Virus record (IMG/VR): IMGVR_UViG_2974673715_000001
Span: 112,496-176,495 of that record
From: a virus
Taxonomy: Duplodnaviria > Caudoviricetes
Strand: one strand, 5' to 3'
DNA length: 64,000 nt
Part shown: positions 8,350 to 55,985 of the stretch, piece after piece
Layout: every line of letters begins with the position of its first letter
Numbering within the stretch: the stretch's first letter is position 1
Notes under the pieces: model-generated
What the model was told of the DNA's origin: nothing
Database searches by the model: none
The model's input: only the letters and a program-made list of their open reading frames with translations
Made by a program: the position numbers and the translations under genes

Positions 8350-8369
8350 ATATTTGTTGGACGCAACAC

Positions 8370-8545
8370 TGGGAGTGACTGAATAAACTTACTGGCATAT
8401 AGCTGGTTAAGGTGATGCGACAGAGGTGGTGCTCGCTGTCAGGAATGGCAGAACTACAAACCAAGTAGGTCGTAGGCAGAGTGGTAATTCTAAACTGTAG
8501 AAATGCCCTGCTCTTGTTGGTATACAGGAATCCAACCTCCCCCAT
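8370..8545 (+). ncRNA. Structured RNA, probably the manA RNA motif
   Basis: GC-richer non-coding ~175 nt closed by GGGAG...CTCCC, with internal hairpins (gttgg...ccaac; ggcagag...ctgct); resembles the cyanophage manA motif from memory. Confidence 0.6.
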
Positions 8546-8675
8546 TAATTTTTTTGTAGAAGGGTAAAGTACCTAGTGAGATTGTCAGGTTTCCCTTATA
8601 AGTAGTAATAGAATTAGGGTTAACAAGATGCACTAAACCTTCTTTGTTATTCACTTCAAAAATGGAGAGAGATTT

Positions 8676-47177: not shown

Positions 47178-49480
47178 TTAGTCCAAGGACACCCAAACCA
47201 ATCAACGTCACAAAAAGAGAAGGAGAGAAGACACCCTTAGACCTTAATAAGGTTCATAAGATGGTAGAACTTGCCTGTGAAGGTCTTGCAGGGGTCTCTG
47301 AATCTGCTGTAGAGATTAACAGTGGTCTTCAATTTTTTGACGGAATTAAGACAGCAGACATTCAAGAAATTCTTATTCGTTCAGCGAATGATCTGATCTC
47401 TCTTGATCATCCTAACTATCAGTATGTTGCTGCAAGATTGCTGCTGTTCGGTCTTAGAAAGGCAGTATATAACGGTCACCCTGATGGTCATCCTCCTTTA
47501 CTTGAGCATGTCAAGAAGTGTATAGACAAAGGTGTGTATGATAGCAGTATTGTTTCCAAATATACTGAAGAAGAATGGGAAAAACTGAATAGTTATATTG
47601 ATCACGACAGAGATTATTTGTTTACATATGCAGGTATTCGTCAGGTAGTCGATAAATATCTCGTACAAGATCGTTCATCAGGAGAAGTATACGAAACTCC
47701 ACAGTTCATGTATATGATGGTGGCGATTACGCTCTTCCAAGACGATGATAAATTTTATCGCTTGGAGTATGTAAGAAAATACTATGACGCAATCTCAAAA
47801 CACAGACTCAACATTCCAACGCCGATTATGGGAGGAGTGCGTACGCCACTCAGACAATTTGCAAGCTGTGTTCTTGTTGATGTTGATGACACCCTCGATA
47901 GCATTTTTAGCAGTGACATGGCTATTGGCAAGTATGTTGCACAAAGGGCGGGTATCGGTATCAACGCGGGTAGAATCCGTGGCATCAACAGCAAAATCCG
48001 TAGCGGAGAAGTACAACACACAGGTGTTGTACCTTTCCTCAAAAAGTTTGAAAGTACTGTCAGATGCTGCACTCAGAATGGCATTAGAGGTGGATCAGCG
48101 ACTGTCCACTTCCCAATCTGGCACCAAGAAATAGAAGATATTATTGTTCTAAAGAATAATAAAGGAACAGAAGACAACAGAGTAAGGAAACTAGACTATA
48201 GTATTCAGATTAGTCAGTTGTTTTATCAAAGATTCATTGATGATCGCAGCATCTCTTTGTTTAGTCCACATGATGTGCCAGGTTTATACGAAGCATTTGG
48301 AACTCCTGAGTTTGATGATCTATATGTAGAGTATGAAAATGATCGTGCTATTCCTAGAAAGACTATGAAGGCACAGAAACTCATCCTTGATCTATTGAAG
48401 GAGAGAGCAGAAACAGGTCGTCTTTATATCATGAACATTGATCACTGTAATAGTCACAGTTCATTCAAAGATAAAGTAAACATGAGTAACCTCTGTCAGG
48501 AGATTACTCTTCCAACAGATCCTATTCAACACATAGATGGATCAGGTGAGATTGCTTTGTGTATCCTATCTGCTATCAACGTAGGTAAGTTAAAGAACCT
48601 TGAAGAACTTGATGAACTATGTGAACTTGCTGTTCGTGGTCTTGATGCATTGATTGATTATCAACAGTATCCTGTCAATGCTGCAAAGCAAAGCACATTG
48701 AATCGTAGATCACTTGGTATTGGTTACATTGGACTAGCACATTATCTTGCTAAGAATGGTGCTAAGTATGATTCTCAGAAAGCATTTGATTTAGTTCATA
48801 AACTTACTGAAAGATTCCAGTATGCTCTTCTAACAGCATCGAATCGTATGGCAATGGAGAAAGGTCCTTGCGGTTATTTCGGTAAGACAAAGTATGCTGA
48901 TGGAATTCTTCCTATCGATACATATAAGAGTGAAGTAGATGAGATTGTTCCGAATGACCTATCATGTGATTGGGAGTATCTCAGGGGCAGGATCAAGGAG
49001 TATGGACTCAGGCACAGCACTTTGTCCGCACAGATGCCTTCGGAGAGCAGTTCCGTTGTGTCAAATGCCACAAACGGAATCGAACCTCCTAGAGACTACC
49101 TGTCCGTTAAGAAATCAAAGAAAGGACCTCTTAAGCAGATTGTTCCGTCTTATAACTCTCTAAAAGCAAACTATACCCTGCTATGGGATATGCATAACAA
49201 TGATGGTTACATCAAAGTAACTGCAGTTATGCAGAAATTCTTCGATCAGGCAATCAGTGGTAACTGGAGTTACAATCCAGAGAATTATCCTGACAATGAA
49301 GTGCCTGTATCTGTGATGGCAAAAGATCTTTTGACCACATACAAATATGGTTGGAAGACTTCATATTATCAAAACACTTATGATGCTAAAAAAGATGGTG
49401 ACGACGAACCAAACGTCGATAAATTAATCAACGACATACTCACCTCGGAGGAAGAAGACTGTGACAGTTGCAAGGTCTGA
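47174..49480 (+). CDS. nrdA: Ribonucleotide reductase class Ia alpha subunit
   Basis: ATP cone, PTPIMGG, ASCVL, SNLCQEI, MPSESSS and C-terminal CDSC. Confidence 0.98.
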   Translation: MISPRTPKPINVTKREGEKTPLDLNKVHKMVELACEGLAGVSESAVEINSGLQFFDGIKTADIQEILIRSANDLISLDHPNYQYVAARLLLFGLRKAVYNGHPDGHPPLLEHVKKCIDKGVYDSSIVSKYTEEEWEKLNSYIDHDRDYLFTYAGIRQVVDKYLVQDRSSGEVYETPQFMYMMVAITLFQDDDKFYRLEYVRKYYDAISKHRLNIPTPIMGGVRTPLRQFASCVLVDVDDTLDSIFSSDMAIGKYVAQRAGIGINAGRIRGINSKIRSGEVQHTGVVPFLKKFESTVRCCTQNGIRGGSATVHFPIWHQEIEDIIVLKNNKGTEDNRVRKLDYSIQISQLFYQRFIDDRSISLFSPHDVPGLYEAFGTPEFDDLYVEYENDRAIPRKTMKAQKLILDLLKERAETGRLYIMNIDHCNSHSSFKDKVNMSNLCQEITLPTDPIQHIDGSGEIALCILSAINVGKLKNLEELDELCELAVRGLDALIDYQQYPVNAAKQSTLNRRSLGIGYIGLAHYLAKNGAKYDSQKAFDLVHKLTERFQYALLTASNRMAMEKGPCGYFGKTKYADGILPIDTYKSEVDEIVPNDLSCDWEYLRGRIKEYGLRHSTLSAQMPSESSSVVSNATNGIEPPRDYLSVKKSKKGPLKQIVPSYNSLKANYTLLWDMHNNDGYIKVTAVMQKFFDQAISGNWSYNPENYPDNEVPVSVMAKDLLTTYKYGWKTSYYQNTYDAKKDGDDEPNVDKLINDILTSEEEDCDSCKV

Positions 49481-50627
49481 TGCAGAAGTAAAAGGAATGA
49501 CAGTATTTAACAAGAACAAAGTAAACACAAAGAAACAACCAATGTTTTTTGGACAACCATTAGGAGTCCAAAGATATGATGAATATAAGTATCCAGTATT
49601 TGATAGACTTACACAATCACAACTAGGATATTTCTGGAGACCCGAAGAGGTGTCTCTACAGAAAGATAGATCAGACTATCAAACTCTTACACCAGAACAG
49701 AAGCACATCTTTACTTCTAACTTGAAGTATCAGATCATGCTTGACTCAGTTCAAGGTAGAGGACCAGGTATGGCATTCATTCCCTACTGCTCTCTTCCTG
49801 AGTTGGAAGCATGCATGACGGTATGGGAGTTTATGGAAATGATCCATAGTCGTTCCTATACATACATCATCAAGAATGTATATCCAGATCCTTCAGAGGT
49901 ATTTGATACTATCTTAGATGATGAGAATGTAATGTCTCGTGCATCATCTGTGACTAAATCGTACGATGAATTTATTAATTCAGCACACGAGTTTGATAAT
50001 TGTCAAACATGGGATCTTGCAAGACAAGGACATTTAACTGGAACCTATGAAAGAAAAGAACTCAAAAGAAAACTCTATAGGGCAATTGCAAACGTTAACA
50101 TTCTTGAAGGAATTCGTTTCTATGTCTCCTTTGCGTGTTCGTTTGCTTTTGGCGAAAATAAACTTATGGAAGGCTCAGCTAAGATTCTCTCTCTTATCGC
50201 TAGAGATGAAAGTCAACACTTGGTTATCACACAAAATATCCTCAAGAACTGGGCAAAAGGTGACGACTCCGAAATGGCAGAAATCGCAAAAGAAGAAAAA
50301 CCATTCGTCGTAGATATGTTCAAGAGAACTGTTGAAGAGGAGAAGACTTGGGCAAACTATTTGTTTAGAGAAGGTAGTATGATTGGATTGAATGATCGCT
50401 TACTACATAATTATGTTGAGTGGATTGCCAATCGTAGAATGAAAGCAATCGGATTAGATCCTGTGTTTGATCAAGTTGCTAGAAACAATCCTTTGCCATG
50501 GACTCAACACTGGTTAAATAGTAAGGGTCAACAGAACGCACCACAAGAAACGGAGATTGAAAGTTATGTCGTCGGAGGAATCAAACAAGACGTCAAAGGA
50601 GACTCCTTTGCAGGATTCTCTCTCTAG
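49461..50627 (+). CDS. nrdB: Ribonucleotide reductase beta subunit
   Basis: FWRPEEV, EMIHSRSY, LEGIRFY, RDESQH and APQETE motifs. Confidence 0.98.
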   Translation: MTVARSDAEVKGMTVFNKNKVNTKKQPMFFGQPLGVQRYDEYKYPVFDRLTQSQLGYFWRPEEVSLQKDRSDYQTLTPEQKHIFTSNLKYQIMLDSVQGRGPGMAFIPYCSLPELEACMTVWEFMEMIHSRSYTYIIKNVYPDPSEVFDTILDDENVMSRASSVTKSYDEFINSAHEFDNCQTWDLARQGHLTGTYERKELKRKLYRAIANVNILEGIRFYVSFACSFAFGENKLMEGSAKILSLIARDESQHLVITQNILKNWAKGDDSEMAEIAKEEKPFVVDMFKRTVEEEKTWANYLFREGSMIGLNDRLLHNYVEWIANRRMKAIGLDPVFDQVARNNPLPWTQHWLNSKGQQNAPQETEIESYVVGGIKQDVKGDSFAGFSL

Positions 50628-50787
50628 CACAGAGTGGTTAGATAAAACTTATAATGATCTAGTGGAGTCAGGAAATGACTACGGTCCAGACATTACTGAC
50701 ATGATCTGGACTGCTGCTAGGAAAGAAGCAACTAAGAGGTTGCACGAAGACTTAAGAAAAGATAAAGATAAGGATAAAATGTGTTAA
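50557..50787 (+). CDS. Hypothetical protein
   Basis: ORF overlapping the nrdB end; likely ATG at 50566. Confidence 0.5.
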   Translation: MKVMSSEESNKTSKETPLQDSLSSTEWLDKTYNDLVESGNDYGPDITDMIWTAARKEATKRLHEDLRKDKDKDKMC

Positions 50788-50826
50788 AGTGTATCATAGT
50801 GAACTACCAATGTCAGGAATCTATGA

Positions 50827-50859
50827 TATAAATATAATGTACAGGTAACAGTTGTTACC
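50827..50859 (+). promoter_or_regulatory. Promoter (TATAAATA/TATAAT) with overlapping NtcA-type palindrome
   Basis: TATAAATA 50827-34, TATAAT 50833-38, GTA-ACAGTTGT-TAC 50845-58. Confidence 0.6.
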
Positions 50860-50862
50860 AAA

Positions 50863-51090
50863 CGTTCATCCAATGCACGGACTCGCACTACTGGTATTGA
50901 TGTTTGCGGAACACGATGCTTCCCACTGGGAACTATCATGTAACGAATGGAATCAATCAAGGATTGAGATACTCAGCGATGAGAATCTTAGTTCAGATGC
51001 TCATGAGTATCTTATAGATTACTTCTATACCAAAGTATCAGAACCAAATTGCGAAGCTTGGCAACTTGGACGCAAGTAATTCGCGGAACG
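50863..51090 (+). ncRNA. glnA-type glutamine riboswitch-like aptamer 1, with ORF-sized P2 loop
   Basis: CGTTC-A-TCCAA...[~190 nt]...TTGGA-CGCAAGTA-attcgc-GGAACG. Confidence 0.7.
50873..51079 (+). CDS. Small 2-Cys protein nested in aptamer 1 (68 aa)
   Basis: MHGLALLVLMFAEHDASHWELSCNEW...EPNCEAWQLGRK*; ATG overlaps the 5' P2 strand, TAA within CGCAAGTAA. Confidence 0.7.
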   Translation: MHGLALLVLMFAEHDASHWELSCNEWNQSRIEILSDENLSSDAHEYLIDYFYTKVSEPNCEAWQLGRK

Positions 51091-51093
51091 GAG

Positions 51094-51287
51094 CGTTCAT
51101 CCCATGATCCCTATTTTAATTGCTACTGCAGTGACATGTGCTGATATTCAACCATTAATCGAGCGTGCTCGAATTTATGAGGGAATTGATGAACAATCAA
51201 GGCAAGAAATCATTGAAATTTATCAAGTAGATTTTGCCAATGCTGTAGGACTTGAGTGTGATTGGGACGCAAACGAATAAAGGAACG
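51094..51287 (+). ncRNA. glnA-type glutamine riboswitch-like aptamer 2, with ORF-sized P2 loop
   Basis: CGTTC-A-TCCCA...[~158 nt]...TGGGA-CGCAAACGAATAAA-GGAACG. Confidence 0.7.
51104..51280 (+). CDS. Small 2-Cys protein nested in aptamer 2 (58 aa)
   Basis: MIPILIATAVTCADIQPLIERARIYEGIDEQSRQEIIEIYQVDFANAVGLECDWDANE*; GGAG at 51090-93; not in the ORF track. Confidence 0.7.
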   Translation: MIPILIATAVTCADIQPLIERARIYEGIDEQSRQEIIEIYQVDFANAVGLECDWDANE

Positions 51288-51323
51288 GACCTTAAACAAG
51301 TCACTAACTTTAGGAGTAAAATC

Positions 51324-51467
51324 ATGACTACAATTACTTACAGAGGCGTCAAGTATGACGCTGAAGCATACAAAGCAAAGGTTCTTGCAGAGCAAGCAAG
51401 TAACAACCGTCACGATCTAATGTATCGTGGATTGAAGGTCGAGCGTAAATTCGCATCCCAGTCTTAA
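51324..51467 (+). CDS. DUF4278-like YRG peptide
   Basis: AGGAG SD; MTTITYRGVKY...DLMYRGLKV with two YRG motifs. Confidence 0.85.
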   Translation: MTTITYRGVKYDAEAYKAKVLAEQASNNRHDLMYRGLKVERKFASQS

Positions 51468-51469
51468 TC

Positions 51470-51586
51470 ATGACAGAACTACAAACCATCGGGATCGTAT
51501 CCCTAGGGTCTGTTGTTTTCATGATTATGATCTATCTGGAACTGCGTCTTTTGCCTCTCAAGAGACCAACAGTTGCTAAAGATTAA
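51470..51586 (+). CDS. Small single-TM peptide (38 aa)
   Basis: MTELQTIGIVSLGSVVFMIMIYLELRLLPLKRPTVAKD. Confidence 0.6.
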   Translation: MTELQTIGIVSLGSVVFMIMIYLELRLLPLKRPTVAKD

Positions 51587-51743
51587 TTTTGAGTGGGATT
51601 ATGGTCTTCCCGAATATGATTCCACTAAACACGATCCAGTCAAGACCTTCGCTTTTTTAACTTATCGTGGAGTGCACTATGCTAAGTGGGTTTACCTCAA
51701 GGTAGACTTCGGTGGTGCACAACCGTGGAACATAACATCTTAA
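51573..51743 (+). CDS. Second YRG-motif small protein (56 aa)
   Basis: TTG start; ...PEYDSTKHDPVKTFAFLTYRGVHYAKWV...; terminator follows. Confidence 0.65.
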   Translation: MLKINFEWDYGLPEYDSTKHDPVKTFAFLTYRGVHYAKWVYLKVDFGGAQPWNITS

Positions 51744-51763: not shown

Positions 51764-51794
51764 AAACCCTAGTCCTTTACGACTGGGGTTTTTT
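51764..51794 (+). terminator. Rho-independent terminator
   Basis: aaaccctagtc-ctttac-gactggggttt followed by Ts. Confidence 0.75.
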
Positions 51795-51833
51795 ATGTTA
51801 GAATAAATATTATGAATTATGCGAAGGAGCACC

Positions 51834-52496
51834 ATGAAAATTTTTCTGGATTGTTCTGATGCCGAAACGATCTCTAATGCTTTTGAGACAGGTTTAATTG
51901 ACGGTGTAACTACCAACCCATCTCTTATGTTAAAAGCAGGACAAGATCCTATGGAAGTCATAACGGAAATTTCAAATATATTTCCTTTCCATGCTTCAAT
52001 CTCTGCCGAAGTGGTAGGTGATACTGCCACTGAAATGTTAGATATGGCAGAGAAGTATATCGACATTGGACCAAACATCACAATTAAAGTTCCATGCACA
52101 CCAGAAGGTCTTAAGGCATGCAGAGACCTCACTAACGATGAAGTTAGTGTAAATGTCACATTAGTATTCTCAACAGCACAAGCAATTCTAGCATCTAAAG
52201 CAGGTGCAACGTACGTTTCTCCTTTTGTAGGAAGAGTATACGATAACTCTTTCGATGGAATCCAATTGATTGAGGAGATTGCAGACGTATTTGCAACTCA
52301 TGGACGAGACACAAAGGTTCTCGCTGCTTCAGTTAGGGAAGTTCAACAAGTATCATCTGCCTTTAGAGTAGGAGCAGATATATGCACTCTCCCTGTTCCT
52401 GTTTTCAATAAGATGTATAAACACATTCTTACAGATAAAGGATTAGAACTGTTTGATAAAGACTGGCAGGAATTGCAAGGATGTCTGAAGAAATAA
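51834..52496 (+). CDS. talC: Transaldolase TalC
   Basis: MKIFLD, GVTTNPSL, TIKVP, NVTLVFS and YVSPFVGR motifs; AGGAG SD. Confidence 0.96.
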   Translation: MKIFLDCSDAETISNAFETGLIDGVTTNPSLMLKAGQDPMEVITEISNIFPFHASISAEVVGDTATEMLDMAEKYIDIGPNITIKVPCTPEGLKACRDLTNDEVSVNVTLVFSTAQAILASKAGATYVSPFVGRVYDNSFDGIQLIEEIADVFATHGRDTKVLAASVREVQQVSSAFRVGADICTLPVPVFNKMYKHILTDKGLELFDKDWQELQGCLKK

Positions 52497-53308: not shown

Positions 53309-53446
53309 ATGGACGAAGAATTCAACATTTCAGATGCGATGATCGACATCATGATCGATCAGTTGCATAAATGTGCTGAGCTCGAAGAGGAGGAACTTGA
53401 AAACCACTGGGACAGTAGCTCAGCGGAAAGAGCAACTGCCTTCTAA
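53309..53446 (+). CDS. Small acidic ORF running into the tRNA (45 aa)
   Basis: AAGGGAG SD; MDEEFNISDAMIDIMIDQLHKCAELEEEELENHWDSSSAERATAF*. Confidence 0.5.
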   Translation: MDEEFNISDAMIDIMIDQLHKCAELEEEELENHWDSSSAERATAF

Positions 53447-53481
53447 GCAGTCGGTCGTAGGTTCAATTCCTACCTGTCTCG
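53409..53481 (+). tRNA. tRNA-Arg (anticodon UCU)
   Basis: GGGACAG/CTGTCTC acceptor, GCTC/GAGC D stem, ACTGC-CTTCTAA-GCAGT anticodon arm, GTAGG-TTCAATT-CCTAC T arm; CCA not encoded. Confidence 0.95.
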
Positions 53482-55850: not shown

Positions 55851-55885
55851 AATCAACTGGGTGAGGAAATCCTCACCTTTTCTAT

Positions 55886-55985
55886 GTGCACCCGTTTAAC
55901 CGAGACCTATGGGTGGGTAAATTACGTCTCTCATATCCATCAGTGAAGGGATTGATGGAAATATAGTATCGCTCTACCCTTTGAG
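55886..55985 (+). ncRNA. PhotoRC-II-like cis-regulatory RNA in the psbA leader
   Basis: gagac...gtctc, ccatcagt-gaaggg-attgatgg, with loop AAGGG complementary to downstream CCCTT (pseudoknot); upstream of phage psbA. Confidence 0.7.

What the first reader, a model, noticed from the sequence alone, without database searches (positions are those of the whole stretch)
50863..51287. Two tandem glutamine-riboswitch-like aptamers, each with a complete protein-coding gene inside its P2 loop
Seen: the unit CGTTC-A-TCC(A/C)A ... T(T/G)GGA-CGCAA ... GGAACG occurs twice, 3 nt apart (50863-51090 and 51094-51287). In each copy P1 (CGTTC/GAACG) and a 5-bp P2 are intact. The two P2 stems differ by a compensatory change: TCCAA/TTGGA versus TCCCA/TGGGA. 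Instead of a short loop, each P2 encloses ~160-190 nt forming an intact ORF (50873-51079, 68 aa; 51104-51280, 58 aa). The A of each ATG is the last base of the 5' P2 strand and each TAA falls in the 3' junction. Established: glnA-motif (glutamine-I) aptamers occur in marine cyanobacteria and cyanophages, often in tandem; recognition here is from memory of that consensus. Inference: aptamer folding and translation of the nested gene would be mutually exclusive, since folding hides the AUG and a terminating ribosome melts the 3' half. This would make a gene-inside-a-riboswitch switch that couples host N status to the nested proteins and the downstream YRG peptides. Standard covariance searches could miss it because of the long insert.
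Basis: partly seen in the sequence, partly recalled or inferred. Interest (0 to 1): 0.92.

Follow-up and report, generated by a model that had tools for sequence, protein, structure and literature searches.

The report
Genes nested inside cyanophage glutamine riboswitch
In this T4-like cyanophage, an RNA switch of the glutamine-sensing type closes two of its hairpins around two real small protein genes, so sensing the host's nitrogen state and translating those genes should compete on one mRNA.

Summary
Each half-motif occurs exactly twice in the 64 kb window (chance 0.00 and 0.23). Both enclosed ORFs are real genes (phrog_6471, phrog_504).

Related phage contigs carry the same halves. Each P2 stem is either a short hairpin or the same stem around an ORF, and all four combinations occur. 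P2 covaries across 170-230 nt.

The two units are not independent. A 5-bp helix, P3 (window AUUCG 51079-83 / CGAAU 51274-78), joins their 3' junctions. Where the unit-1 strand varies, the unit-2 partner is compensated in 29 of 29 and 71 of 72 loci.

ORF-free natural versions score 35.6-46.4 bits on Rfam's glutamine model (cut-off 35), read as one interlocked double unit. The window itself scores nothing.

The stretch holding ORF2's stop codon pairs with the ribosome-binding region of the downstream DUF4278 (IF17-like) gene: 0 A-C pairs in 342 contexts.

Glutamine binding and regulation were not tested. I found no paper describing genes inside a riboswitch aptamer. This scan has noted the same layout on other genomes: the index lists 255 matching AI notes, of which 8 were shown to me.

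The parts
50810..50838 (+). Sigma-70-like promoter, ATGTCA-17-TATAAT
   Evidence: 10 of 12 matches. The same layout is seen by eye in S-SSM5 and MbCM1. This is a consensus match only.
50845..50858 (+). 5' hairpin GUAACAGUUGUUAC ahead of the switch
   Evidence: (I9 arm) and the MFE fold. A similar hairpin is present in S-SSM5.
50863..50867 (+). CGUUC, 5' strand of P1 (unit 1)
   Evidence: An exact CGTTCA was found upstream in 213 of 219 related contexts; the other 6 loci were too short upstream. This strand was used as the parsing anchor, so its invariance is partly by construction.
50869..50873 (+). UCCAA, 5' strand of P2 of unit 1. Its last A starts ORF1.
   Evidence: P2 covariation in long unit-1 forms.
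50873..51079 (+). ORF1, 68 aa, a small two-Cys helical protein
   Evidence: phrog_6471, E 3e-28. Intact in 37 of 37 long unit-1 forms. AF2 pLDDT 83.1.
51066..51070 (+). UUGGA, 3' strand of P2 of unit 1
51071..51078 (+). CGC linker strand plus AAGUA (junction 2/3, one loop-E half). Contains the UA of the ORF1 stop codon.
   Evidence: Aligns to CGGAAGUA of RF01739 in homologues. CGC corresponds to C17-G18-C19 of the solved glutamine-II aptamer.
51079..51083 (+). AUUCG, 5' strand of P3
   Evidence: Pairs with 51274-78. Covariation.
51086..51091 (+). GAACGG, the first 3'-type P1 strand
51094..51098 (+). CGUUC, the second 5'-type P1 strand
   Evidence: Exact in 215 of 219 contexts; the other 4 had no match.
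51100..51104 (+). UCCCA, 5' strand of P2 of unit 2. Its last A starts ORF2.
51104..51280 (+). ORF2, 58 aa, a paralogue of ORF1
   Evidence: phrog_504, E 2.3e-19. hhalign of ORF1 family against ORF2 family: 95%, E 3e-8. Intact in 117 of 117 long unit-2 forms. AF2 pLDDT 82.9.
51263..51267 (+). UGGGA, 3' strand of P2 of unit 2
51268..51273 (+). CGC linker strand plus AAA of unit 2
51274..51278 (+). CGAAU, 3' strand of P3. Its U starts the ORF2 stop codon.
51279..51282 (+). AAAG, junction 3/1 (the other loop-E half) and the switching strand
   Evidence: Aligns to GAAG of RF01739 in homologues. Pairs with 51308-12.
51283..51288 (+). GAACGG, the second 3'-type P1 strand
51308..51316 (+). CUUUA (partner of UAAAG) overlapping the Shine-Dalgarno AGGAG (51312-16)
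51324..51467 (+). YRG peptide gene, 47 aa, DUF4278 (IF17-like)
   Evidence: PF14105 25.0 bits against a cut-off of 25.3; phrog_5049 E 1e-24.
51470..51586 (+). 38-aa hydrophobic ORF
   Evidence: No family found.
51573..51743 (+). Second YRG-type ORF, 56 aa
   Evidence: phrog_6192, E 2.8e-26.
51764..51791 (+). Terminator-like hairpin followed by a T run

Best explanation
The region 50863-51288 is one composite riboswitch of the glutamine type.

Anatomy. It holds two ligand-pocket sets. Each set is a CGUUC strand, an A, a P2 stem, a CGC linker strand and a GAACGG strand. A 5-bp helix, P3 (51079-83 with 51274-78), joins the two sets. The most likely fold is nested. The outer P1 pairs CGUUC of unit 1 with GAACG of unit 2. 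Together with P2 of unit 1, AAGUA, P3 and AAAG, this gives a full glutamine-I core. GAACG of unit 1 and CGUUC of unit 2 form a hairpin capped by GAG which, with P2 of unit 2 and P3, gives a second, circularly permuted core. Each P2 stem is closed around a real gene, and the two genes (ORF1, ORF2) are paralogues.

Output. The strand UAAAG (the end of P3 plus junction 3/1, including ORF2's stop codon) can pair instead with CUUUA, which overlaps the Shine-Dalgarno sequence of the DUF4278 (IF17-like) gene. By analogy with the ON switches shown for the Synechocystis and Prochlorococcus leaders, glutamine should hold that strand in the aptamer and free the ribosome site.

Consequence of the nested genes. 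The start codons of ORF1 and ORF2 lie in P2. Their stop codons lie in the junction and in P3. A folded sensor should therefore hide both starts. A ribosome reading either ORF must open the sensor, and one terminating at ORF2's stop must open the anti-Shine-Dalgarno helix.

Shown here: the anatomy, the covariation and the coding status. Inferred: ligand binding, the direction of regulation and the competition with ribosomes.
For: Homology to the glutamine aptamer:
- Compact unit 1 in S-SSM4, S-SSM5 and MbCM1 scores 26.7-29.4 bits on RF01739 and 25.6-29.4 on RF01704.
- Natural ORF-free double units score 46.4 bits (L110). In 12 of 20 loci scanned they score 35.6-45.9 bits. The cut-off is 35. Each hit spans the whole 86-101 nt double unit in the nested register.
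- The nucleotides that contact glutamine in the solved glutamine-II aptamer are C1, G2, G18, C19, C39, G40 and G41. That paper says the glutamine-I pocket is virtually identical (PMC6698751, passages). They correspond to CGUUC, CGC and GAACGG, and all are present twice in the window.

P2 around the ORFs:
- In 37 long unit-1 forms, pair 3 is C-G in 22 and U-A in 15, with 0 mismatches.
- In 115 distinct long unit-2 forms, pair 4 is C-G 87, U-A 21, U-G 4, A-U 2 and 1 mismatch.
- In a 12-sequence ungapped alignment, 93.6% of cells are paired, against 22-52% when the partners are slid. Three pairs change on both sides.

P3:
- 113 loci carried both junctions. None showed a disruptive single change in a standard junction; 2 loci with atypical junctions (L063, L045) were not scored.
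- In targeted scans, AAUCG is partnered by CGAUU in 26 of 26 loci and AUUCG by CGAAU in 3 of 3 (including the window).
- For AGUCA, the partner base is U in 68 of 69. For AGUCU the partner is AGACU in 3 of 3.

RNA-level constraint at the end of ORF2:
- In 37 distinct 179-nt units, third-codon-position entropy is 1.48 in codons 4-47 and 0.03 in the last six codons.
- The 3' motif is also kept where the ORF stops 15 nt earlier.

The ORFs are genes:
- They are intact in 37 of 37 and 117 of 117 long units.
- They match PHROG families and show a coding-type entropy pattern.
- AF2 gives confident helical cores.

The genes are always wrapped:
- Loci picked by internal protein motifs carry the 3' half in 80 of 80 and 80 of 80.
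- They carry the 5' half in 79 of 79 (ORF2 set). In the ORF1 set, 72 of 78 passed the script rule, and 4 of the 6 misses were re-read and found present.

Output platform:
- The helix is 98.9% paired in 59 sequences.
- Its variable pair is G-C 116, A-U 135, G-U 91 and A-C 0 in 342 distinct contexts. This holds in both ORF-bearing and compact forms.

Context:
- The downstream gene is DUF4278.
- Klahn 2018 (PMC6212724, passages) links both glutamine aptamer types to DUF4278/IF17 genes. It reports glutamine-dependent activation of expression.

Folding:
- The outer P1 forms in 8 of 8 ORF-free double units, and the full nested fold in 7 of 8.
Against: - The window itself scores nothing on either Rfam model.
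- No ligand-binding or expression experiment exists for these forms.
- The four P1 strands never vary, so covariation cannot tell which CGUUC pairs with which GAACG.
- The minimum-energy fold of the window's 491 nt forms the side-by-side P1 plus P2 of unit 1, not the nested outer P1. It does not form unit 2 at all.
- P2 is only 5 bp in each window unit and must close loops of about 190 and 160 nt.
- The inner core lacks the loop-E halves.
- A second lineage has a different unit-1 junction (AGCCGACUC) whose pairing I could not resolve.
- Covariation counts are not corrected for shared ancestry. The number of independent compensatory events may be as low as four for P3 and one or two for the platform pair.
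- z-scores of the energy folds are mostly unremarkable.
Confidence: 0.7

Rival explanations
1. One reading: two independent, side-by-side aptamers. Each closes its own P1 (CGUUC of a unit with GAACG of the same unit), and they act pseudo-cooperatively like other tandem glutamine riboswitches. P3 would then be a bridging helix. Each unit would have a glutamine-II-like pseudoknot topology.
For: - The MFE fold of the window forms P1 plus P2 of unit 1 on its own.
- Compact unit 1 alone matches RF01739 and RF01704 at 24-32 bits.
- Compact unit 2 alone reaches RF01704 at 35.4 and 34.0 bits in 2 of 20 loci.
- Sherlock 2022 counts 157 doublets and 4 triplets of glutamine riboswitches (PMC9481103, passages).
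- In glutamine-II, GGAACGG lies directly after the 5' strand of a helix, as it does after AUUCG-C here.
Against: - Single units stay below the RF01739 cut-off, while the double unit passes it in 13 loci.
- AAGUA is present only in unit 1 and RAAG only in unit 2, so a loop E can form only across the two units.
- The P3 covariation ties the units together.
- The nested fold is the MFE in 7 of 8 ORF-free forms.
Confidence: 0.2
2. The halves are relics. In ORF-bearing forms the RNA no longer senses glutamine. The conserved ends survive as translation signals, as coupling elements between the small genes, or as an mRNA-stabilising clamp that pairs each ORF's start with its end.
For: - No binding data exist.
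- P2 is short and its loops are long.
- The window scores nothing on Rfam.
- GGAG in the linker could serve as ORF2's ribosome site.
- Stop-start distances of 24 and 43 nt would allow translational coupling.
Against: - All pocket nucleotides are invariant in 219 contexts, including synonymous sites of ORF2.
- ORF-free and ORF-bearing forms share the same junctions, P3 and platform, with the same covariation.
- A mere clamp would not need CGC, AAGUA, RAAG or GAACGG.
Confidence: 0.08
3. Chance resemblance, or conservation caused only by the encoded proteins.
For: The end of ORF2 encodes a conserved W-D-A-N-D/E tail.
Against: - GGACGCAA is read in different frames in ORF1 and ORF2.
- The motif persists beyond early stop codons and in ORF-free forms.
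- Shuffles give 0.00 expected matches.
- The bases just before the start codon covary with the identity of the stop codon about 200 nt away.
Confidence: 0.02

Closest known systems
Glutamine-I riboswitch (glnA RNA motif, Rfam RF01739), for example the Synechocystis gifB/IF17 leader (PMC6212724)
   Same: CGUUC/GAACG P1, an A spacer, P2, the CGN-AAGUA junction, P3 and the GAAG junction. It sits ahead of a DUF4278 gene and has an anti-ribosome-site platform. ORF-free phage homologues pass the family cut-off.
   Different: P2 is closed around a 58-68 codon gene, twice. The P3 'loop' is a second aptamer-like core. The window itself is invisible to the model. Ligand binding is untested.
Glutamine-II riboswitch (Downstream-peptide motif, Rfam RF01704; structure in PMC6698751)
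   Same: CGCA after the first hairpin, GGAACGG directly after a helix strand, and association with YRG/DUF4278 peptides of marine picocyanobacteria. The two-piece form shown there proves that the pocket can assemble from separate strands.
   Different: Only 7 bits in the window. The second hairpin is replaced by a helix formed between the two units. There are genes inside.
Tandem riboswitches, including glutamine doublets (PMC9481103) and the glycine tandem aptamers
   Same: Two sensors for one ligand on one leader.
   Different: In the passages I read, glutamine doublets are treated as separate switches. The words 'nested' and 'phage' do not occur in that paper. Here the two cores share a covarying helix and probably swap P1 strands.
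Structured RNAs that carry ORFs in peripheral loops: group I introns with homing-endonuclease genes (PMC3984707, search listing and abstract only)
   Same: A protein gene sits in a loop of a functional RNA fold, so long-range helices must close around it.
   Different: Those are ribozymes and mobile elements, and the ORF is not part of a ligand-sensing helix. Here the start and stop codons are themselves in the sensor's stems.
Leaders in which translation of a short ORF decides the RNA fold: attenuators, and the Salmonella mgtA/mgtCBR leaders (PMC3641672, abstract in a search listing; the mgtA leader peptide is recalled from memory)
   Same: Ribosome traffic on an ORF inside a regulatory leader competes with alternative RNA structures.
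   Different: Those ORFs are short sensor peptides without a conserved fold. Here the ORFs are conserved protein families of 49-79 aa.

Membership tests
Glutamine-I riboswitch (RF01739) | P1 helix of conserved CGUUC with GAACG | tested here: met
   Both strands are present twice. They are invariant in related contexts. Which strands pair with which is unresolved.
Glutamine-I riboswitch (RF01739) | P2 stem directly after CGUUC-A, kept by covariation | tested here: met
   (long-range, around the ORFs). Compact hairpins covary.
Glutamine-I riboswitch (RF01739) | Junctions CGN-AAGUA and GAAG (loop E) flanking P3 | tested here: met
   Met only across the two units: CGCAAGUA at 51071-78 and AAAG at 51279-82.
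Glutamine-I riboswitch (RF01739) | P3 helix | tested here: met
   51079-83 with 51274-78. Compensated in 29 of 29 and 71 of 72 variant loci.
Glutamine-I riboswitch (RF01739) | Score at or above the Rfam gathering cut-off (35 bits) | tested here: not met
   There is no hit in the window, because of the ORF inserts. ORF-free homologues score 35.6-46.4 bits in 13 loci.
Glutamine-I riboswitch (RF01739) | Selective binding of L-glutamine | not testable with these tools
   The pocket nucleotides are conserved when compared with PMC6698751. No assay was possible.
Glutamine-I riboswitch (RF01739) | Sits ahead of a nitrogen-related gene, typically DUF4278/IF17 | tested here: met
   PF14105 at 25.0 bits, just under its cut-off of 25.3; phrog_5049. 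A covarying platform helix links the element to that gene.
Glutamine-II riboswitch (RF01704) | GGAACGG inside the loop of a second hairpin, pairing back to the 5' CGUUC (pseudoknot) | tested here: inconclusive
   The topology is possible if P3 plays the role of that hairpin. It cannot be told apart from the nested fold, because the P1 strands never vary.
Glutamine-II riboswitch (RF01704) | Score at or above the cut-off (33 bits) | tested here: not met
   7 bits in the window. Compact homologues score 24.8-35.4 bits, and 2 of 20 loci are above the cut-off.
Independent tandem riboswitches | Each aptamer folds on its own, with no shared helix | tested here: not met
   P3 is formed between the two units and covaries.

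The most novel reading that the evidence does not exclude
One glutamine sensor works as a two-way translational switch. With glutamine bound, the interlocked double core hides the start codons of both nested genes and frees the ribosome site of the IF17-like gene. Without glutamine, the nested genes are read, and each terminating ribosome transiently opens the sensor and the anti-Shine-Dalgarno helix. Ribosome traffic and ligand are thus integrated on one RNA. The double core would be a natural strand-swapped pair of a glutamine-I aptamer and a circularly permuted copy of it. The aptamer-wrapped gene would be a duplicating module of cyanophage genomes.
Probability: 0.35. Interest if true: 0.92.

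Novelty: new variant of a known kind. Interest (0 to 1): 0.85.

Why it matters
Riboswitches are taken to be compact, non-coding leader elements. A 2017 survey found only two glutamine aptamers in two cyanophage genomes and concluded that phages rarely use riboswitches (PMC5473149, passages).

Here the same sensor type is present, unseen by standard scans, in hundreds of marine cyanophage contigs, with whole genes inside its stems:
- The collection holds 500 relatives of ORF1 and 525 of ORF2.

If the sensor works, it shows three things:
- Ligand-binding RNA folds can be assembled across 160-230 nt of translated sequence.
- Phages read the host's glutamine pool to time small proteins, including a likely glutamine-synthetase-factor homologue.
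- Covariance-model searches with length limits undercount riboswitches.

The case is directly testable, because natural ORF-free and ORF-bearing versions of the same element exist side by side.

Tried and rejected
- Rfam on the window at the gathering threshold and at E up to 10 gave no glutamine hit. The other weak hits (snoRNA, anti-hemB, PyrR and others) are chance matches or matches to the terminator.
I used natural ORF-free homologues instead.
- The search for related loci with the broad ORF2 alignment A2 on genome contigs failed, because the alignment has no conserved stretch.
- A DNA pattern scan of 185,579 species genomes gave 6 hits. Three are chance matches (high GC, no ORF). Three are low-GC marine MAG contigs with the same phage layout, probably mis-binned phage. 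None is cyanobacterial. The pattern covers only one spacing class, so this is not proof that hosts lack the layout.
- Variants at positions 3 and 4 of the P3 strand were not found in IMG/VR, so those pairs say nothing either way.
- The local 3-bp hairpin CGC...GCG in unit 1, predicted, is rejected. In the scan for variants of its 3' G, 78 loci carry A or U at that position and none shows a matching change in the paired CGC.
- Foldseek of the ORF1 model against the PDB gave no match at E up to 0.001.
- The protein atlas gave only viral hypothetical clusters.
- Pfam gave nothing for ORF1 and only a sub-threshold DUF5359 match for ORF2.
- Metatranscriptome contigs of 4 RNA runs from 4 studies lie on 50843-51732. 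Single contigs bridge unit 1 through to ORF2 (338 nt), ORF1's end through to unit 2's end (287 nt), and ORF2 through to the YRG gene (262 nt). They are contigs and may contain DNA, so they show presence in RNA libraries, not a transcript.
- No contig lay on 50600-50842 or beyond 51743. This is only absence of cover and I draw nothing from it.
- The 'joints' that skip 152-156 nt between 51106-09 and 51261-63 have sides under 30 nt. They probably come from other phages' conserved cores, so I draw nothing from them.
- Energy z-scores of the ORF-free double units range from -0.12 to -2.57 and are not evidence on their own.
- Ames and Breaker 2011 and Ren et al. 2015 are not held. Supplements are closed. 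Weinberg 2010 Additional File 1, Klahn 2018 Table S1 and Figure S3, and S-CREM1 Table S7 may bear on whether long P2 or P3 inserts were noted before.
- Literature searches for nested ORFs in riboswitches found no such description.
Full report
WHAT IS THERE

The window is part of a 176 kb T4-like cyanomyovirus record. The finding lies between nrdB (49461-50627) and talC (51819-52496).
- CGTTCA-TCCAA-TG at 50863-75;
- TTGGA-CGCAAGTAATTCGCGGAACG at 51066-90;
- a GAG spacer;
- CGTTCA-TCCCA-TG at 51094-106;
- TGGGA-CGCAAACGAATAAAGGAACG at 51263-87.

Each half occurs twice in the 64 kb window, where shuffles give 0.00 and 0.23. Neither occurs elsewhere in the phage record. The enclosed ORFs are 68 and 58 codons long. 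Rfam sees no glutamine riboswitch here at any threshold. There is only a 7-bit trace of RF01704.

RELATIVES SHOW WHAT THE HALVES ARE

blastn finds the region in 371 phage records, none covering 80% of the query. In S-SSM4, S-SSM5 and metaG-MbCM1, unit 1 is a compact hairpin aptamer. It is followed 3 nt later by a unit 2 that holds an ORF. Those compact units match RF01739 at 26.7-29.4 bits and RF01704 at 25.6-29.4 bits. This is below both cut-offs but in full register.

I dropped L001, which is a copy of the window's own record. That left 124 occurrences:
- Unit 1: compact in 82, ORF-bearing in 37, not found in 5.
- Unit 2: ORF-bearing in 117, compact in 1, not found in 6.

Of these, 90 have a compact unit 1, 25 a long unit 1, and 5 were unresolved. 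So all four combinations exist in nature, and each P2 loop gains or loses its gene independently.

THE STEMS CLOSE AROUND THE GENES

In the 37 long unit-1 forms, P2 pair 3 is C-G in 22 and U-A in 15, with no mismatch. Pair 4 shows U-A 12, C-G 8, A-U 3 and G-C 1, plus 13 unpaired cells; 11 of those are A-A, which look like a bulged register. In 115 distinct long unit-2 forms, pair 4 is C-G 87, U-A 21, U-G 4 and A-U 2, with 1 mismatch.

In an ungapped alignment of twelve 233-nt unit-1 forms, 93.6% of cells pair. With the partners slid, only 22-52% pair. Three pairs change on both sides.

In those forms the stop codon lies in the 3' strand of P2. UAA, UAG and UGA each go with the matching two bases just before the AUG (UU, CU, UC). 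No protein constraint explains that link over about 200 nt.

THE TWO UNITS ARE INTERLOCKED

L110 is a locus where both units are compact. There RF01739 scores 46.4 bits (cut-off 35) as a single aptamer:
- P1 is CGUUC of unit 1 paired with GAACG of unit 2.
- P2 is the hairpin of unit 1.
- The junction is CGCAAGUA.
- P3 pairs AGU(CG) of unit 1 with (CG)ACU of unit 2.
- GAAG follows P3.

Of 20 further loci scanned, 12 pass the cut-off at 35.6-45.9 bits in the same register, with hits of 86-101 nt. The glnA hit reported for cyanophage S-CREM1 is 99 nt long at 44.0 bits (PMC9964418, Table 4). It is probably the same double unit.

In the window the P3 strands are AUUCG (51079-83) and CGAAU (51274-78). 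Against the majority AGUCG/CGACU this is a change on both sides.

I tested P3 as a prediction, by scanning IMG/VR for variants of the unit-1 strand only:
- Position 2 variants: 33 rows, of which 29 have a readable unit-2 junction. AAUCG goes with CGAUU in 26 of 26, and AUUCG with CGAAU in 3 of 3.
- Position 5 variants: 78 loci, of which 72 are readable. For AGUCA the partner base is U in 68 of 69, with one uncompensated C. AGUCU goes with AGACU in 3 of 3.
- Positions 3 and 4 had no variants.
- In the first set, 113 loci carried both junctions. None showed a disruptive change in a standard junction; two loci with atypical junctions (L063, L045) were not scored.

The compensating changes in unit 2 fall on synonymous third positions of ORF2 (AAC to AAU, GAC to GAU). 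This explains why those sites are otherwise frozen.

AAGUA occurs only in unit 1 and RAAG only in unit 2, so the loop E of the glutamine-I fold can form only across the units. Energy folding of eight ORF-free double units gives the outer P1 in 8 of 8. It gives the full nested fold in 7 of 8: P3, an inner GAACG/CGUUC hairpin and the second P2.

The four P1 strands never vary in 219 distinct contexts. A side-by-side, pseudoknotted alternative therefore cannot be excluded by covariation. The MFE fold of the window's 491 nt in fact forms the unit-1 P1 plus P2 on their own.

POCKET NUCLEOTIDES

The glutamine-II crystal structure places the ligand on the C1:G40 pair, the G2:C39 pair with G18 as a third base, and the C19:G41 pair. 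The paper states that the glutamine-I pocket is virtually identical (PMC6698751, passages). These are the CGUUC, CGC and GAACGG letters. Both sets are intact in the window. The same paper shows that a two-piece aptamer still binds glutamine. This makes assembly from distant strands plausible.

THE ORFS ARE GENES

Every long unit holds an ORF of 49-79 codons: 37 of 37 and 117 of 117. ORF1 matches phrog_6471 (E 3e-28) and ORF2 matches phrog_504 (E 2.3e-19). The two families are related to each other over the Cys-to-Cys core (hhalign 95%, E 3e-8).

In 37 distinct 179-nt unit-2 forms, codon entropy is 1.09, 0.59 and 1.48 for positions 1, 2 and 3 in codons 4-47. That is a coding pattern. The last six codons have 0.03 at position 3. 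By contrast, invariant Cys and Glu codons elsewhere vary freely at position 3.

The 3' motif is kept where the ORF stops 15 nt earlier (L006, L027, L032, L047). GGACGCAA is read in different frames in ORF1 and ORF2.

AlphaFold models are confident: pLDDT 83.1 and 82.9, with cores above 90. They are helical. Neither model has a structural match or a named relative.

I also picked loci by motifs inside the proteins, which is unbiased with respect to the RNA. These always carry the aptamer halves:
- ORF1 relatives (best 80 of 500): 3' half in 80 of 80. The 5' half was found in 72 of 78 by the script rule. The six misses were caused by an upstream in-frame ATG. I re-read four of them and found the motif; the other two were not re-read.
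- ORF2 relatives (best 80 of 525): 79 of 79 and 80 of 80.

OUTPUT

RNAalifold on 59 sequences, running from the unit-2 junction to the next start codon, pairs CU(G/A)AAG with CUU(C/U)AG. The first strand is the end of P3 plus junction 3/1. The second overlaps the AGGAG of the next gene. The helix is 98.9% paired.

Over 393 distinct contexts, 51 lack the motif within 95 nt. The other 342 show G-C 116, A-U 135, G-U 91 and A-C 0. The pattern is the same in ORF-bearing (205) and compact (137) forms (Fisher p about 1e-16 each, not corrected for ancestry).

In the window this helix is UAAAG 51278-82 with CUUUA 51308-12. The Shine-Dalgarno sequence is 51312-16 and the AUG is at 51324. The gene encodes a 47-aa YRG peptide. 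It scores 25.0 bits on DUF4278 against a cut-off of 25.3, and matches phrog_5049.

Klahn 2018 ties both glutamine aptamer types to DUF4278/IF17-like genes, shows that glutamine raises expression, and proposes that binding melts an inhibitory duplex at the ribosome site (PMC6212724, passages). The switching strand here contains ORF2's stop codon (UGA or UAA). A terminating ribosome would therefore open the same duplex.

HOW IT MOST LIKELY WORKS (INFERENCE)

A promoter-like site (50810-38) and a terminator-like site (51764-91) frame the unit.

With glutamine, the double core folds. The AUGs of ORF1 and ORF2 are inside P2 stems. The switching strand is held in the aptamer, and the IF17-like gene is translated.

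Without glutamine, the cores are loose and the nested genes are read. The ribosome site of the IF17-like gene is paired, except while a ribosome terminates at ORF2.

Metatranscriptome contigs from four studies lie on the unit and bridge its parts. This shows only that it is present in RNA libraries.

COMPARISON AND NOVELTY

The element works like, and is homologous to, the glutamine-I/II riboswitches. As it stands in the window it fails their model cut-offs, because of the inserts.

- Tandem glutamine riboswitches are known: 157 doublets and 4 triplets (PMC9481103).
- glnA RNA hits in cyanophages are known (PMC2864571, PMC9964418).
- A 2017 survey counted only two such aptamers in cyanophages (PMC5473149).

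I found no paper that describes genes inside a riboswitch aptamer, or the shared P3. The founding glutamine-aptamer paper, the glutamine-I structure paper and all supplements could not be read.

The scan's own notebook holds the same reading for other genomes. The index lists 255 matching notes in at least 161 genomes, and 8 of them were shown to me, all with this layout. These are AI notes, not independent evidence. I re-derived the interlocked reading here.

VERDICT

It is a new variant of a known riboswitch class. Interest is high.

Noticed in passing
window 8355-8546: A full-length manA RNA (RF01745, 171.5 bits). L417 carries one too.
   Followed up: no
window 55876-55972 and 53409-53481: A PhotoRC-II RNA (76.8 bits) and a tRNA gene (70.3 bits).
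   Followed up: no
L003, L009, L024, L042, L073, L110 and others, between unit 2 and the YRG gene: About a fifth of the platforms are 65-75 nt long instead of about 43. They carry an extra covarying hairpin within ACGGAUC-stem-GNRA-like loop-stem-(G/A)AAGG(U/A). I could not explain it. It may be a further regulatory module.
   Followed up: no
L239-L318 (most), L051, L063: A second lineage has the unit-1 junction CGCAAGUA-AGCCGACUC-GGAACGG and the unit-2 junction CGCAAAAGCCGACUGAAGG. Both strands share GCCGACU rather than being complementary. The P3 pairing of the main lineage does not carry over cleanly (best duplex -7.3 kcal/mol, with mismatches).
   Followed up: partly
L126, L128, L130 (genome contigs): Contigs binned as Verrucomicrobiales, an uncultured bacterium and a Euryarchaeota MAG carry the full cyanophage double unit at 37-39% GC. 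They are probably phage contigs placed in the wrong bins.
   Followed up: partly
loci: The gene after the switch comes in at least two types. One is a short YRG...YRG peptide, as in the window. The other is a longer form beginning MNTL..IKKQI..AALHDAQI..YRGV.
   Followed up: no
window 51470-51586: A 38-codon, strongly hydrophobic ORF lies between the two YRG genes. It starts 2 nt after the first gene's stop codon and overlaps the TTG start of the second. No family was found.
   Followed up: no
window 51091-51093 and the equivalent position in other loci: The spacer between GAACGG of unit 1 and CGUUC of unit 2 varies in sequence and length (AG, AU, UU, AA, GG, UA, AGC, GUA, AUUU, AAU). That is the behaviour expected of a hairpin loop or a free linker.
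   Followed up: partly
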